DNA from: Amphiscolops sp. MND2022
Lineage: Eukaryota
NCBI GenBank assembly: GCA_964187785.1
Contig: OZ076411.1
Coordinates: forward strand, 24,118,001-24,182,000
Reading direction: 5' to 3'
Length of the DNA: 64,000 nt
Shown here: positions 39,001-52,200 of the stretch, piece after piece
Position numbering within the stretch: position 1 is the first letter of the stretch
Layout of the letters: each line of letters opens with the position of its first letter
Program-made: the position numbers

Positions 39001-42000
39001 TCATTGAAGAAAGAAGGTTCTAAGTGTACATATTCCATTTTTAATATGCGATAAACTTTTTATACGACTGTTGTAAGTAATTTCTCGTGTTTTTAATGAG
39101 GTGGCCGTTCATTGACACTACTGCACAGGAGGGGTGCAGCTTGCAGCACATCGTAGACCGAACCTTCGGAAGATATTTTATTGAAGTTTTTCTTTTTTGG
39201 CCCTATGCTGCTTTTTCACGACGAGTACCGAGTATACCGATGTGCATGGTCTCCTTAAAAGTAGAAAAGTGCAAAAAAATGATGCAAACGTGTATTGGAT
39301 ATTCGAAGTTATTATTATAACGTAGTCAGCTGTATTCACATACCCCCAGTGCTCCAAGTGCAGAAGCGGAGCGACGTGTCACTGCTGTTTTCGATAAAGG
39401 CCGACGTGGAAGTGCGCGAAGCGCTCCGAAAATAAGGCCGTCTTGCAACCAGTTTTTTCGATATTGGCTGATAAAGCATTAAAATGTAGTTAATCGCATT
39501 CTTCGTTTTTTTACGAGCTTCGATTTTTACGACCTTCGATTTTTAGTACTTCGATTTTTACGAACTATTTTTGAAAACAAATCCCACAATGCTGAAAACC
39601 ACATTGTTTTGTAATTCGAAATCCGACAATAGAAGGGGGACCCTATGGCCCTATAAAGATCATTTGCTGAAAGTTGGTCCTTATTGGATTGGAAAAAAGT
39701 AACGAAAAGCCGCTAATAATCACTGTATCTTTCATAATTCGCCCACTAAAAAGTGAGTCGACGCACTTTATGAAATTACTACTCAGAAAATTTTCATCAA
39801 ATTTCTACTTGACAGCCGCTTTGCTTAACAGCGGTCTTTTCCAATTTCTTGTAATTTATTGTTTAAAACAGTTTTAAGTCCCCACCGTGCATTTTAAACT
39901 GAATTTAATTAAATGGCATGTAATTGGTATTTGACGAAGTTGGAAAAATTATGCTTATAGTACGATATATATTGGGCTCCAATATATATTCTGAAATATA
40001 AGATAATAAATAAGGACCGTGCGAACTGGAACCATTTTAAAAGGGTCTTCACGAAATAGAAGTAGCCCGAGTTGAAGCATGGGCAGTCAGAAAAAGATAG
40101 GCAAGGTGCCAGATCGCTGCAAGCTGCAGAGCCTCCATACAGTGTCAAAAACGGTCCCCTGAATGAAACAAGCACCAAGAACATCAAGTGGAGGAGAGAT
40201 TTATAAATTATATAAATATATATTAAACAGAAATATATATTCTGAAATGTGCTTTTTGTTTGAAAAATTGTTGACGAAATTTATTCAGAAAAGTGCTTAA
40301 TAATATGGCACCAGACGGCTCTATTCTTTAAATAAGGAAATTTATCAGCCAATCAAATCGTTCGTATTTCCAATGCTTCAATTTTCTAGACGTCCGCATT
40401 TGCTATTCTGCAAGTCTTCTGTTTCTGATTAACAAGCAGTAATGCCTTCTTCAAAAATAACGGTTCTTTTAATTTGTGGACTTTTTTGCGTCAAAATAAA
40501 AGCGGCCATTCCATCTTTGTCGAGTCAGTTATTTAGCCATTTGAGCAACTCACTCAACAATTATAGCAACGTTACTCTTCCCTCACGTCGCAACGAGGAT
40601 GAACCTATAGAAGTCAAACTACAGATTCAACTTATTCAAATTCTCGAAGTGGTTAGCTCAAGCAATGTTGAACAAGACTTTAAACTTTTTCTGCACTGTA
40701 TTTTAGGTATCAACTTTCAAAATGTTTTTCAGAATAGTTAATGTGTTTTAACATATCAAATAGCCGTACCTTTGTTTTTTGCGTTTGTCGAAAGGTCGCA
40801 ATGTGACGGCTCCATCTGAATAGAAGGTTGGTGCTAACGTGTTCTGAAATTGAGTATATTATTAATAATCCTGACTTAATCATTTCGAAAATCAATCTCA
40901 TGTGCTATTTCGCTTATATTATTTTTGTGATTCCAAAATTCACAATCTGATCTTTATGGAGAATTCAAGGATTATCGATCTTTCACTATATTGAGACCGT
41001 ACCGTGCAGCTAAAACCTTTCAGTTCTCAGAAATATTGTGGAATTTCTTCTGTTCTTTTGTGGTACTTAAATCAGTTTGAAAGTTTCAACTGACTATGCA
41101 TTGTAAGACCGTGAGAATGTAAGCTAGCTACTACGAAGCAAGCCAGAACCGTCATAAAGCTCAAAACTTTAAAGGGGACCATAAACAGTTCTTTAAAATC
41201 ATTTTTAATAATTCATTTTTTTCAGTGAACTTCCAATACCATAATTTCTTCAATGGCAAAATGTTTCAAAAATCATAGTTGAAATGCCTGACATTAATTT
41301 TTTCCTCTCTTCTTCAATCAGTTCTTTTACGCTTATTTCACCATCTCTAAAAGGTTGATGTGTACTGAAGAAACCACGAAGCGATATCATGCAAGTTTTT
41401 AAGCCCACACTGGCTGGTTAATCATAAAAACTTACTGTAAGCGCTTATATTGCTCGTGTTCGTTCTTTCGATACCAGAAGTTCAAATTTTCCGACTACAA
41501 AAGTTCAAAGCTAGACTTTCCCAGACGCAGAAAACATTTTTGAAAGCTAATCTAGTTCTTGACAAACGCGCTGATTTGAAACTATTTTTGTGGAATTATT
41601 TGTGGTTTATGATTTTCAAAAAGTTGCACATGTTTTTCATTAAAAGTAATTTTCCTTGAGCGATTAGACCAACAAAAATGATTTTAGCTGCAATGCAATA
41701 CTTAATTAGTCATCCCTGAAAACTATTAATGACAACATGGGCTTTTTTCAGGAGAAACACAATGTCTGAAATGTTTACCTAATTTTCACCAGTTTTCCCA
41801 AAAGAACAAAATGTATCTGACTGGTGATCTATTTTTTTTACAACATCATGCTTTAACCACTACGCTATAACGCATTTTGTCGCCTTTATGTTTCATGCGG
41901 ATGGAACTTTTCGTAGAACTATTTTTGTGACTTCGAGTGGATTGAATTCATAAAATATTTATGCATATTTTCGGGCGAATAAGCTAAAAATGAATCCTAT

Positions 42001-49200: not shown

Positions 49201-52200
49201 AGTTCTATGCTTTTTAACCTTCGTGCTTTTCCTCAGAATTTGCCATTTTATTTGATACCGAAATTTCCACTTATTTTTTATTGAAACACGTTTTCTCAAA
49301 ATTCACTGGTTTCGATGTAGATTAAAGTGCAGTCGGCTGGTTTGAGTTTTAGGATTGTTGAATACCATGATTGGTGGCAAAATTACCAAAGACAGCCTAA
49401 TCTATGTAGCAAACTAGCCAGTACTTTACACTGAGTTACGTAGTCACCCATGTTCCGTAACTATAATGCCCAAAATCAAGAATGAAGCGGAACATGTCAA
49501 CTTTAGTGCAGCAGTGGGTTTTGACGTGATCAAACATGTAGGGCTGCGAAGCGCTGCCAAAATGCGAGGAGTTGTCATTCTAGCATTTTGTAATTTTTGT
49601 CGATTTTGAAGTTTGAGCTCTTTTTGGGATATGAATAATATGGCATTTGCTAATTAGACTGGTTGTCAATGCCACTGTGAAACATGAAACCTGAAAAATG
49701 CATATTTTAATTGTTGCAGTATTGCGACGGTGCCTAGGAGGGCATGCGCTATCTTGAAAACAAATCCATTTGGATGGCATTTAAACCTTCAAACTTAGTC
49801 TTAGCGATTAGTCGTATTACTAAAGATCTTTCCCCGCTTCAAAATTGATGAATGCAAGGATGCACCTCAAAACCCTTCTTTTTGTCTGTTAAAAGTTTTT
49901 TTTTGATCTGATTGACTTTTATGCTAATGAAAATAGGGATAAATTCCAATGCTCAATTTGTCTGTTCTTGTCTTACTGAGCTTATGTTTCCGAATAGGTC
50001 AATGGTGAATTGAAGCAGAAAATTTTAATCAAGTTGGTTTGATTGCACCCATCGAAAAAAAATTGAATAATGGTAACCTAAGGGATAGGTATAACTTCTT
50101 CATATTGTCCTTTATTTTGAATTTGGTGCTACTATATTCGCCTGATCATTTTGAGATATTATCGTTTTCAGGATTTGAAAAACCAGCGTCTAGTAGTTAG
50201 TTGCTGGCCAACGCAAGAATGGCACGACCACTATGTGGCATGGAACGATACGGAGTTCCAGGAGATCCCCGTCATGCGACTACCCCCGACCCTCGTGTGG
50301 CGACCAGATATCATGGTGATTAATACGTGAGTTGTTTTCACTCCTGTCTTCTCGGGTTTATGGCCCTTACTTTCCAAAATTGCAATAGTTCCACTTCCAT
50401 GACCTGCTAATTTTGTCAACTTTATTGCTCGATTTCTTCCAACCGCACCGACGTAACTCTTTCAATGTATTTCAATTTGTTTTGTTTGCGAGTTTTGTTT
50501 GCAATTATTGTTTCAATTTATTGTTTTTATGACCTAAAATGTGCTACAAACGCTTGTGACATGTTGTATGTTGTATATGCCTCAGGGGGTGTCAAGAATT
50601 ATTGTACCAACATTTTCAGTTCCATTTTGGATATTTGTCAGTCAAAATATATTTGAAAAGAAATATTCGTCAAAAATAATCGATGTATTGGTTTTGATGT
50701 AGGAGTACTTATCTGAACAAAAATTGCATGCGATAGGGAGTTGATTTCATACAATCAATTGGTTTGAAAGTTTTTAAAACGCACTTTTTGTGCACATTGT
50801 GCATTTTTGTGTTTTTACCATAAGTACTTAGTTCTTCATTTTCAACGCATCCAAAGCCTCTAACATGAGATAAAAACCATTCCAATGCAGAAGAGTCCCC
50901 CCTTATAATTTTTCGGCACTATGAGACTGTTCAAATTTCTCAAATTTTTTTTCCGAACTTTTTTTTATTGCTCCAAAGGATCCCACCCATCATTTTTTGC
51001 AACAGAATGGATCCCCCTTTCATTTTTTTTACTTTTTAAACGTATCATGCAAAACCGGACGAGACTGAAGGGTCCCCTTCCAATTTTTTCGGCACTGTGC
51101 GACTTCCTTTTGAAATTTTTTTTGTCTCCAAAGGATCCCCCTTTGGTTTTTTACTTTTTTAACGTAGCCTACAGAACCGTATGACAGTGAAGGGTCCCCT
51201 TTCGAGTTTTTTTGGCACTGTGCGACTTTTTAGCTAATTTTTTTGTCTCCAAAAGGCTCCCCCTTCGATTTTTGAGCCTTAGACATAGCGCCGACTTGGG
51301 CCGTTCCCGGCTTGTTCTATCTGTTAACGTCTTCAAATTTTTCAACTGGAGCAGGACAAAACAGCCGATTTTAAACGGGACAAAACAGCAAATTTTCAAA
51401 ATAGGACAAAACAGCCGATTTTGAAACGTTACAAAATCGGCGATTATCAAAATAAAAATCGCCGATTTTGTCAATGCGTAAGATTAGCAGTCAATAAAAT
51501 TGTTATTTCAACGTAGTCAGCTATGTTCACATACACCTAGTACCCTAAATGCAGGAGTGAAGCGGGGCGGAGCGACGTGCCATGTGGCCATGCCTCAATG
51601 TTGCTACTTGGCGAAGGGAGAGAAGCGACCGAGCCATACAACAAATATGAACCTCTTCAAATAAATCAAGTTCCATGCATATTGGCTGTAACAGCACTCA
51701 TCTTGTTCCGTTTTGAAAATCGGCTGTTTTGTCCCGTTTTGAAAATTGGCTGTTTTGTCTCGTTTTGAAAATCGGCTGTTTTGTCTCGTTTTAAAATCGG
51801 CTGTTTTGTCCCGCATCCCTTAAACTTGAACCGCCACACTGGCTCTGGACTTTGCGTCAAAACCTTGCACGCCTTGTGTCTTGATTGCAATTCAGCATGT
51901 TTTAAAACATGCTAAGGCCGTTGCGACCCAACCTTGATACCAGTGGCATAAAGCGGACAAATGGTAACTGGAAAAACCGAAAATCTGTACTAGACTTTTT
52001 GGTCCCGGTTTCTTGATTTCGGAGACATCAAGTCAATAATTCGTGGAAATGCGTGCAATGCTATGTAATATTGTCTAAAAATCTTATTCAAGAGTTTTCT
52101 TTTCCATACGTTCAGCTAGTGCCTTCAGGAGCTTGCAGAATTCGTCCCAATCGTCCATTTAGGGTCAACATTGAGTTGAAACTTTAGCGGTTGCTACCTC

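What the first reader, a model, noticed from the sequence alone, without database searches (positions are those of the whole stretch)
40652..50171. Complete MOSPD2-like gene nested on the SAME strand in intron 1 of a Cys-loop receptor gene
Seen: channel exon 1 ends QILEV (phase 0, 40651) and exon 2 begins DLKNQ (phase 0, 50172), the usual nAChR junction. Between them lies an intact multi-exon CRAL-TRIO/MSP/TM gene (47133-49255), with ATTAAA at 49321. Established: nested genes are mostly antisense to their host. Inference: channel transcripts must skip four exons and a poly(A) signal, so mutually exclusive expression, premature termination or chimeric transcripts are possible.
Basis: partly seen in the sequence, partly recalled or inferred. 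Interest (0 to 1): 0.65.

Follow-up and report, generated by a model that had tools for sequence, protein, structure and literature searches.

The report
Gene nested inside receptor gene intron
An intact gene for an ER-anchored lipid-binding tether protein (MOSPD2-like) lies, in the same direction, inside the 9.5-kb first intron of an acetylcholine-receptor-like channel gene; this is a real but ordinary kind of gene arrangement in animals.

Summary
Channel exon 1 (40442-40651) ends QILEV in phase 0. Exon 2 starts DLKNQ at 50172. Between them, on the same strand, lies an open four-exon gene (47133-49255) with CRAL-TRIO, MSP and a C-terminal membrane helix, followed by ATTAAA at 49321.

Exon 1 on its own matches the channel family only weakly. 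Its match covers Pfam profile positions 6-40 and exon 2 starts at position 41, so the two abut. It is the best N-terminal candidate among 2166 open frames in the window. Two unnamed database ORFs (84% and 64% identical) stop resembling it just past the predicted donor. No second exon-1 candidate lies after 49300.

I read this as an ordinary host/nested gene pair: a separate transcription unit in a long first intron that also holds a LINE-type reverse-transcriptase frame. A 2024 mouse/human survey found a slight bias and frequent first-intron nesting. VAChT inside ChAT intron 1 is the classic nested case.

No transcript or synteny data could be reached, so the exon 1-exon 2 junction and the expression of both genes remain inferred. 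Interest is low.

The parts
40442..40651 (+). Channel (Cys-loop receptor) exon 1: start codon, signal-peptide-like hydrophobic core, N-terminal helix and first strand; ends QILEV in phase 0; donor GTTAGC at 40652
   Evidence: coordinates; best 12-residue hydropathy window at residues 6-17, 2.96. (Neur_chan_LBD profile 6-40, E 0.044). (hhalign to five nAChR subunits, E 0.022). (top of 2166 ORFs). (two ORFs, 84% and 64% identical, alike up to ...QILEVVS and different after it).
40652..50171 (+). Channel intron 1, 9520 nt, the longest of the five introns seen in the window
   Evidence: No Rfam family at gathering score in 39500-51500.
43630..45270 (-). 547-residue open frame of a non-LTR-type reverse transcriptase, antisense to both genes, inside intron 1
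   Evidence: RVT_1, E 1e-24.
47133..47552 (+). Nested gene exon 1: start codon, CRAL-TRIO N-terminal part; donor GTATTT; phase 0
   Evidence: CRAL_TRIO_N, E 1.3e-4 to 1.5e-4. (SEC14 chains, E 8e-5)..
47618..48060 (+). Nested gene exon 2: C-terminal two thirds of the CRAL-TRIO domain plus linker; donor GTAAGT
   Evidence: CRAL_TRIO profile 59-153 of 153, E 2.8e-17. (yeast CSR1, E 7.7e-9)...
48129..48256 (+). Nested gene exon 3: acidic/serine-rich linker with no family match. The alternative end is 48291 (donor GTTGCT), paired with exon 4 starting at 48494.
   Evidence: Both pairings keep the frame. By my reading, exon 2 cannot join exon 4 in frame at any AG I examined. No Pfam match at E<=10.
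48507..49255 (+). Nested gene exon 4: MSP domain, long helix and C-terminal hydrophobic anchor; stop TGA at 49253-49255
   Evidence: Motile_Sperm, E 2e-7, above the cut-off. (VAP-A, SCS2 and MOSPD2 MSP chains, E 0.11-0.67). (Atlas first hit is a 'motile sperm domain-containing protein 2-like' cluster, 0.92). (helix 195-247 at pLDDT 83-98). (hydropathy 2.68 at residues 222-240).
49321..49326 (+). ATTAAA, candidate poly(A) signal 66 nt after the nested stop, followed by a G/T-rich stretch
   Evidence: It is the only + strand AWTAAA in 49256-50171, and the motif is not enriched in the window.
50172..50326 (+). Channel exon 2: DLKNQ...; acceptor ttttcag; donor GTGAGT
   Evidence: (Neur_chan_LBD profile 41-91, E 2e-10). 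(hhalign, E 1.7e-9)..
58150..58256 (+). Channel exon 3, which ends with the first Cys of the Cys-loop
   Evidence: profile 88-128, E 0.001..
59522..59599 (+). Channel exon 4: the rest of the Cys-loop, with 13 residues between the two Cys; weak donor GTTTTC
   Evidence: profile 129-152, E 7.5e-6..
61067..61202 (+). Channel exon 5 (loop-C side of the ligand-binding domain). The start is tentative: 61067 fits the phase of exon 4.
   Evidence: No Pfam match. Likeness to the SGEWD region of A1 is by eye.
63022..63488 (+). Channel exon 6: TM1-TM3. The gene runs off the window end.
   Evidence: Neur_chan_memb, E 1.6e-15. (34-42% identity to five nAChR subunits)..

Best explanation
This is an ordinary host/nested gene pair in an animal genome. 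The host is a nicotinic-receptor-like Cys-loop channel subunit gene. No Cys-Cys pair is seen in the loop-C exons, so it is probably a non-alpha type. Its first intron (9520 nt) separates exon 1 (signal peptide plus N-terminal helix) from exon 2 at a phase-0 position.

That intron holds a separate, intact, compact four-exon gene in the same orientation, with introns of 65, 68 and 202-250 nt. It encodes a tail-anchored CRAL-TRIO + MSP protein with the architecture of MOSPD2, the ER tether and lipid-binding protein of membrane contact sites.

Shown: both sets of exons, their frames, splice dinucleotides, domain content and order, and the absence of a rival channel first exon in the window.

Inferred:
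- The nested gene has its own promoter upstream of 47133 and ends near the ATTAAA at 49321.
- Channel transcription starts upstream of 40442, reads through the nested unit and removes it with the intron.
- The two genes avoid conflict in the ways described for other tandem nested pairs: expression in different cells, or suppression of the intronic poly(A) site during host elongation. Some premature host termination is expected wherever the nested promoter is active.
- The intron was also enlarged by the LINE-type element at 43630-45270.
For: Junction:
- Exon 1 residues 35-70 match Neur_chan_LBD positions 6-40 and exon 2 matches 41-91. They abut with no residue missing.
- The same holds against five nAChR subunits: exon 1 aligns to P0001 residues 29-68 and exon 2 from residue 71.

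Uniqueness:
- In a scan of all 2166 stop-to-stop frames of 20 residues or more, the exon-1 frame ranks first (E 0.18; next 1.4). Nothing in 49256-50171 appears among the 15 best rows printed.
- tblastn of P0006 and P0007 on the window finds only 40442-40657 (E 6e-38) and 40520-40657 (E 4e-17). The next best are E 0.073 and 0.79.
- Four + strand frames in 49418-50197 have no Pfam match at E<=10.

Exon 1 is kept elsewhere: 2 proteins at E<=0.001 in 1.84 billion representatives. They are identical to the window through IQILEVVS and different after it.

The channel looks functional over six exons: a Cys-loop with 13 residues between the Cys, TM1-3, and no internal stops.

Nested gene: open frames of 169, 148 and 253 codons (P about 9e-5, 3e-4 and 9e-7 each). 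CRAL_TRIO_N, CRAL_TRIO and Motile_Sperm occur in order. The CRAL-TRIO domain is split by the 65-nt intron, so splicing is needed. There is a C-terminal anchor. The Atlas first hit is a MOSPD2-like cluster.

No flanking repeats or target-site duplication surround it.

Precedent: nested genes sit preferentially in long and often first introns, with near-balanced orientation (PMC11694760).
Against: - No transcript evidence of any kind was within reach, so the 40651-50172 junction, the nested promoter and the poly(A) site are all inferred.
- Taken alone, exon 1's likeness to the family is not significant (E 0.044, 0.022 and 0.18). A PDB sequence search with it found no channel chain.
- The word-based search for longer proteins holding exon 1 found none (0 of 29 candidates). 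No annotated full-length protein therefore shows the two exons joined.
- The two related ORFs are single-exon predictions from unnamed contigs. They could come from close relatives or paralogues, so they show that the exon is kept, not that it is spliced to exon 2.
- The nested protein is divergent. No longer relative of its exon 4 was found (0 of 1879 candidates), and MSP chains in the PDB match only at E 0.11-0.67.
- The ATTAAA is no more than chance would often give.
- A mis-join cannot be excluded from one window.
Confidence: 0.75

Rival explanations
1. Two neighbouring genes, not a nested pair. The frame at 40442-40651 is a relic or orphan exon left by a duplicated or decayed channel gene. 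The downstream channel then starts at an unrecognised first exon after 49300, or has lost its first exon and is a pseudogene.
For: Exon 1's match to the family is weak when taken alone. Its donor GTTAGC departs from the usual GTRAGT at position +3 (the consensus is recalled). No annotated protein joins the two exons.
Against: No other frame in the window resembles a channel N-terminus, and none after 49300 has any Pfam match. The profile positions of exons 1 and 2 abut exactly, 40 and 41. Exon 1 and the first two codons of the donor are identical in two other sequences, while the signal-peptide part and the intron side differ. All six channel exons are open with canonical borders.
Confidence: 0.1
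2. Assembly artefact. A mis-join placed the MOSPD2-like gene, or the channel's exon 1, in the wrong place.
For: The region is rich in transposon remnants, which favours mis-assembly. Nothing in a single window can exclude it.
Against: There are no N runs in the window. No step in base composition occurs across 40000-52000 (GC 0.34-0.40). No long repeats sit at candidate joints. Exon 1 has the strand, order and phase that exon 2 needs.
Confidence: 0.05
3. The nested gene is an intact-looking but silent or decaying copy: a divergent, intron-poor duplicate of the true MOSPD2 orthologue that landed in the intron. It would then pose no problem for host transcription.
For: The sequence is very divergent. 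It has only three short introns. In the one alignment available (rat/human VAP-A chain 2rr3_A), the two residues named as critical for FFAT binding, K94 and M96 of VAP-A (PMC6030701), fall on V and K of the window protein.
Against: All four exons are open with canonical splice borders, and the total length is divisible by 3 in both models. The chance of a 253-codon open frame is about 9e-7. The core MSP signature (FK..., T.P, RP.SG) aligns with VAP-A. The Pfam score is above the cut-off.
Confidence: 0.07
4. A coupled locus. The two genes share the channel promoter or make chimeric messages. Channel exon 1 and nested exon 2 are both phase 0, as are nested exon 1 and channel exon 2. The pair would then be co-regulated in the manner of the cholinergic gene locus.
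For: The orientation is the same and the position is intron 1, as for VAChT in ChAT (PMC3053374). The phases are compatible.
Against: Phase 0 is the commonest phase, so the compatibility is weak evidence (recalled). Channel exon 1 carries a start codon and signal peptide that would be fused to a cytosolic domain. No functional link between MOSPD2 and these receptors turned up in print (0 papers).
Confidence: 0.03

Closest known systems
Cholinergic gene locus (VAChT inside the first intron of ChAT)
   Same: A complete protein-coding gene lies in intron 1 of a host gene. The arrangement is conserved in nematode, Drosophila and mammals (PMC3053374, passages). That the orientation is the same as the host's is recalled, not seen in the passages.
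   Different: VAChT is a single exon, is functionally tied to its host, and has transcripts sharing a 5' exon with ChAT (partly recalled). Here the nested gene has four exons and no known functional tie to the host. The host's exon 1 is coding, and conservation of the arrangement could not be tested.
Mammalian host/nested pairs in general, and H13/Mcts2 in particular
   Same: Nested genes sit preferentially in a long, often first, intron. The two orientations are about equally common (PMC11694760, passages). An active nested promoter can drive premature intronic polyadenylation of the host (PMC13309782, abstract; PMC3192792, passages).
   Different: Those are mammalian loci with transcript data. 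Mcts2 is a retrogene (recalled), whereas this nested gene has introns. Nothing about the expression of the present pair is known.
MOSPD2 (motile sperm domain-containing protein 2)
   Same: N-terminal CRAL-TRIO domain, MSP domain and C-terminal transmembrane anchor in that order (PMC6030701, passages; window). The Atlas first hit for exon 4 is a MOSPD2-like cluster.
   Different: Sequence likeness is low: the MOSPD2 MSP chain 6tqu matches at E 0.67. The linker is longer (580-596 codons in total). The FFAT-binding pair is not evidently kept. Orthology was not tested.
Nicotinic acetylcholine receptor subunits (Cys-loop cation channels)
   Same: Neur_chan_LBD and Neur_chan_memb matches. A Cys-loop with 13 residues between the Cys. 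34-42% identity over TM1-3 to subunits of a hemichordate, amphioxus and fishes. An intron after ...QI.EV where, as I recall, vertebrate genes have one.
   Different: No vicinal Cys pair is seen in the loop-C exons. TM4 and the 3' end lie outside the window. The ligand is unknown.

Membership tests
Host/nested gene pair (nested gene wholly within one intron, same strand) | All exons of the inner gene lie between two consecutive exons of the outer gene | tested here: met
   The inner gene spans 47133-49255 (signal to 49326). The outer exons end at 40651 and start at 50172.
Host/nested gene pair (nested gene wholly within one intron, same strand) | The two flanking outer exons are really joined in the host mRNA | not testable with these tools
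   Indirect support only: abutting profile positions 40 and 41, and no rival exon. No transcript data and no annotated protein with both exons.
Host/nested gene pair (nested gene wholly within one intron, same strand) | The inner gene is an independent transcription unit with its own promoter and 3' end | not testable with these tools
   Only a start codon with an open frame and a single ATTAAA downstream.
MOSPD2 | N-terminal CRAL-TRIO domain | tested here: met
   CRAL_TRIO_N at E 1.5e-4 (22.3 bits against a 23-bit cut-off) on exon 1. CRAL_TRIO at E 2.8e-17 (63.4 bits against 22.6) on exon 2, covering profile 59-153. The first third of the domain on exon 1 is seen by eye only.
MOSPD2 | MSP domain after the CRAL-TRIO domain | tested here: met
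   Motile_Sperm at 31.3 bits against a 25.9 cut-off on exon 4. VAP and MOSPD2 MSP chains are the only PDB matches (8 of 8).
MOSPD2 | Single C-terminal transmembrane anchor | tested here: met
   The best 19-residue hydropathy window (2.68) is at residues 222-240 of 248 on exon 4. No comparable stretch occurs in exons 1-3 (maximum 1.04). A confident helix spans 195-247.
MOSPD2 | FFAT-binding pair (R404/L406; K94/M96 in VAP-A) | tested here: inconclusive
   In the HMMER alignment to VAP-A chain 2rr3_A, the KFM of KHKFMVQTI falls on V-V-K of the window protein. The alignment is weak there, and the numbering offset is my own inference.
MOSPD2 | Orthology (closest relatives are MOSPD2 proteins; tree) | not tested
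The joined protein was not searched, by instruction.
Cys-loop (nicotinic-type) receptor subunit | Ligand-binding domain with a Cys-x13-Cys loop | tested here: met
   Neur_chan_LBD matches on exons 2, 3 and 4. The Cys at the end of exon 3 and the Cys in exon 4 have 13 residues between them.
Cys-loop (nicotinic-type) receptor subunit | Four transmembrane helices | tested here: inconclusive
   TM1-TM3 are present (Neur_chan_memb profile 1-110 of 233). TM4 would lie beyond the window end.
Cys-loop (nicotinic-type) receptor subunit | Alpha-type vicinal Cys pair in loop C | tested here: not met
   No Cys-Cys in exons 5 and 6 before TM1. This bears on the subunit type only, not on family membership.

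The most novel reading that the evidence does not exclude
The pair is a conserved, functionally coupled locus in this lineage. It would resemble the cholinergic gene locus, with an ER contact-site/lipid-handling protein kept inside the first intron of a receptor subunit gene. The two would be co-regulated, or one would gate the other by transcriptional interference, for instance to tie receptor production to ER membrane state. Nothing here excludes this, because neither synteny nor expression could be examined.
Probability: 0.04. Interest if true: 0.55.

Novelty: new member of a known kind. Interest (0 to 1): 0.18.

Why it matters
Mainly for annotation. Gene finders tend to break or fuse same-strand nested pairs. 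The channel's distant exon 1 (9.5 kb upstream, with a weak family signal) is easily lost, and the MOSPD2-like gene is easily merged into it. If both genes prove to be expressed, the locus would be one more test case, outside mammals, for how a host transcript passes an active same-strand promoter and poly(A) site. As it stands it adds an example and does not change a concept.

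Tried and rejected
1. Search for annotated longer proteins containing channel exon 1: 0 of 29 candidates. The junction therefore could not be read from an annotated relative.

2. PDB sequence search with exon 1: only 2 unrelated chains (E 0.01 and 1.8). Uninformative.

3. Search for longer relatives of nested exon 4: 0 of 1879 candidates.

4. Structure prediction of nested exon 4 alone, without an alignment: mean pLDDT 42, with only the C-terminal helix confident. The MSP fold was not recovered, so I ran no fold search on it.

5. 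Atlas search with nested exon 2: generic CRAL/TRIO clusters (0.91-0.93), nothing specific to MOSPD2.

6. Repeat search around the nested gene: no flanking direct or inverted repeats that would point to transposon capture or a target-site duplication. The four short direct pairs look like chance.

7. Rfam over 39500-51500: 0 matches.

8. A retrogene origin was considered and set aside, because the gene has three introns and one of them splits the CRAL-TRIO domain.

9. Direct splicing of nested exon 2 to exon 4 was considered and rejected: no AG that I examined near 48494-48510 gives the right phase (read).

10. Left out or out of reach:
- No complex prediction was run, since nothing suggests the two proteins bind.
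- The joined (spliced) proteins were never built, searched or folded.
- Paper supplements were not opened. The pair lists in the supplemental tables of PMC11694760 might bear on how common such pairs are.

Full report
**Scope and limits.** The window has no N and a G+C content near 0.39. It is full of transposon remnants. I do not take it for human: the channel's best relatives are 34-42% identical subunits of a hemichordate, amphioxus and fishes. The joined (spliced) proteins were never assembled, searched or folded, so anything that only a full-length query would show (orthology above all) stays open.

**The channel exons.**
- Exon 1 starts at the ATG at 40442. Its frame has a hydrophobic core at residues 6-17 (mean hydropathy 2.96). 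It ends ...QILEV at 40651 and is followed by GTTAGC.
- Exon 2 follows ...ttttcag at 50172 with DLKNQ... It ends at 50326 before GTGAGT. That is one base earlier than a naive reading of the open frame.
- Further exons are 58150-58256, 59522-59599, 61067-61202 (start tentative) and 63022-63488. All have AG/GT borders, consistent phases and no internal stop.
- Together they give a ligand-binding domain, a Cys-loop with 13 residues between its cysteines, and TM1-TM3. Pfam matches are Neur_chan_LBD on exons 2-4 and Neur_chan_memb at E 1.6e-15 on exon 6.
- In one search I gave Pfam 98 frames chosen from the 276 listed. Nine of the 98 had a match at E<=0.01.
- The gene leaves the window before TM4. 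No Cys-Cys pair is seen before TM1, so it is probably a non-alpha subunit.

**Does exon 1 belong to exon 2?** This is the crux, and the evidence is indirect but coherent.
- Alone, exon 1 is a weak match. Pfam gives Neur_chan_LBD as its only hit at E 0.044. hhalign against five nAChR subunits gives E 0.022. A PDB sequence search finds no channel.
- The match covers profile positions 6-40 and ends at the last residue of the exon. Exon 2 starts at position 41. Against subunit P0001 the two exons align to residues 29-68 and from residue 71 onward.
- I built an N-terminal profile from those five subunits and ran it over all 2166 stop-to-stop frames of 20 residues or more, on both strands. The exon-1 frame came first (E 0.18, next 1.4). 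Nothing between 49256 and 50171 was among the 15 best rows printed.
- A full HMMER search of 1.84 billion representatives with exon 1 found 2 proteins at E<=0.001: P0006 (75 aa, 84% identical) and P0007 (81 aa, 64%). Both are unnamed single-ORF predictions on long ENA contigs.
- Aligned with the window's read-through frame, all three are identical through IQILEVVS and unrelated after it. P0007 also differs through the signal-peptide part. This is the pattern expected of a kept exon with a kept GT.AG. donor.
- On the window itself these two proteins hit only 40442-40657 (E 6e-38) and 40520-40657 (E 4e-17). The next best are E 0.073 and 0.79.
- Four + strand frames between 49418 and 50197 have no Pfam match even at E<=10.
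Only cDNA can close the question.

**The nested gene.**
- Exon 1 (47133-47552) carries CRAL_TRIO_N. Exon 2 (47618-48060) carries CRAL_TRIO profile positions 59-153 at E 2.8e-17. The 65-nt intron therefore splits the domain, and splicing is required.
- Exon 3 is an acidic linker with no family match. It can end at 48256 (GTGAAA) and pair with 48507, or end at 48291 (GTTGCT) and pair with 48494. Both choices keep the frame, giving 580 or 596 codons including the stop.
- Exon 4 holds the MSP domain (31.3 bits, cut-off 25.9). It also has a long helix and a terminal hydrophobic stretch.
- PDB matches are all VAP, SCS2 or MOSPD2 MSP chains (8 of 8) but weak, at E 0.11-0.67.
- The CRAL-TRIO part is nearest to yeast CSR1 (E 7.7e-9) and SEC14.
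- The Atlas first hit for exon 4 is a 'motile sperm domain-containing protein 2-like' cluster at 0.92.
- The architecture is that described for MOSPD2 (PMC6030701, passages).
- In the one alignment that covers them, the FFAT-binding pair of VAP-A falls on V and K. I rate this inconclusive.
- A word-based search for longer relatives of exon 4 found none. The single-sequence structure model was poor (pLDDT 42).
- ATTAAA at 49321 is the only such hexamer on the + strand before channel exon 2. The motif is not enriched in the window: 155 found against a mean of 195 in shuffles.
- No flanking repeats suggest capture by a transposon.

**What it is.** The simplest reading is an ordinary host/nested pair. 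The intron also holds an antisense 547-residue reverse-transcriptase frame (RVT_1, E 1e-24), so it has grown by insertions.

- A 2024 mouse/human survey reports that more than a tenth of genes are involved in such pairs. It finds nested genes preferentially in a long and often first intron. Orientation shows only a slight bias toward opposite (PMC11694760, passages).
- An older human set had about one third (53 of 158) of protein-coding nested genes in tandem (PMC3192792, passages).
- VAChT inside the first intron of ChAT is conserved from nematodes to mammals (PMC3053374, passages).
These are forced exonization, intron retention and cryptic polyadenylation upstream of tandem nested genes (PMC3192792). 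Transcription-driven intronic polyadenylation of H13 by Mcts2 is another (PMC13309782, abstract).
- None of these consequences could be tested here.
- A search for papers holding MOSPD2, 'acetylcholine receptor' and 'intron' found none. Among the ten papers listed, none held both 'nested gene' and 'nicotinic acetylcholine receptor'. This particular pair therefore seems unreported in the library searched.

**Verdict.** This is a new example of a known kind and of low interest, unless synteny or expression data show the pairing to be conserved or coupled.

Noticed in passing
window 43630-45270 (-), with (AG)n at 43220-43258: A 547-residue open reverse-transcriptase frame (RVT_1, E 1e-24) of a non-LTR-type element lies antisense inside channel intron 1, next to a dinucleotide repeat. 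No endonuclease part was found upstream of it, so it may be 5'-truncated.
   Followed up: partly
window 30936-36201: Upstream of channel exon 1 there are Ty3/gypsy-type remnants on the minus strand (Integrase_H2C2, RT_RNaseH, RVT_1, gag-asp_proteas), broken into several frames. LINE-type RT and zf-RVT pieces follow on the plus strand. Among the 49 longer frames (80 aa or more) from 1-39000 scanned, only retroelement domains matched.
   Followed up: partly
window 53133-54870 (+): Three overlapping long open frames (125, 189 and 339 residues) lie in channel intron 2, on the same strand as the channel. They have no Pfam family at E<=0.01. This may be an unclassified transposon or a second nested gene.
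   Followed up: partly
window 47078-47117: A 20-nt unit is repeated twice in tandem (80% matches), ending 16 nt before the nested gene's start codon. A promoter or 5'UTR role is not known.
   Followed up: no
window 40600-40619 and 48258-48277: A 20-mer in channel exon 1 recurs, 18 of 20 bases alike, at the nested gene's exon 3/intron 3 border. Both copies read ..IEVK.. in frame. Probably chance: three other pairs of similar size turned up in the same 11 kb.
   Followed up: partly
window 51009-51273 and 51353-51454: Tandem repeats with units of 122 nt (2.2 copies) and 26/51 nt lie in channel intron 2.
   Followed up: no
window 59600 and 61067: Channel exon 4 has only a weak donor (GTTTTC) that keeps the conserved ...LTYSS... 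segment. The phase then requires exon 5 to start at 61067 rather than at the stronger-looking acceptor at 61083. This junction needs cDNA.
   Followed up: partly
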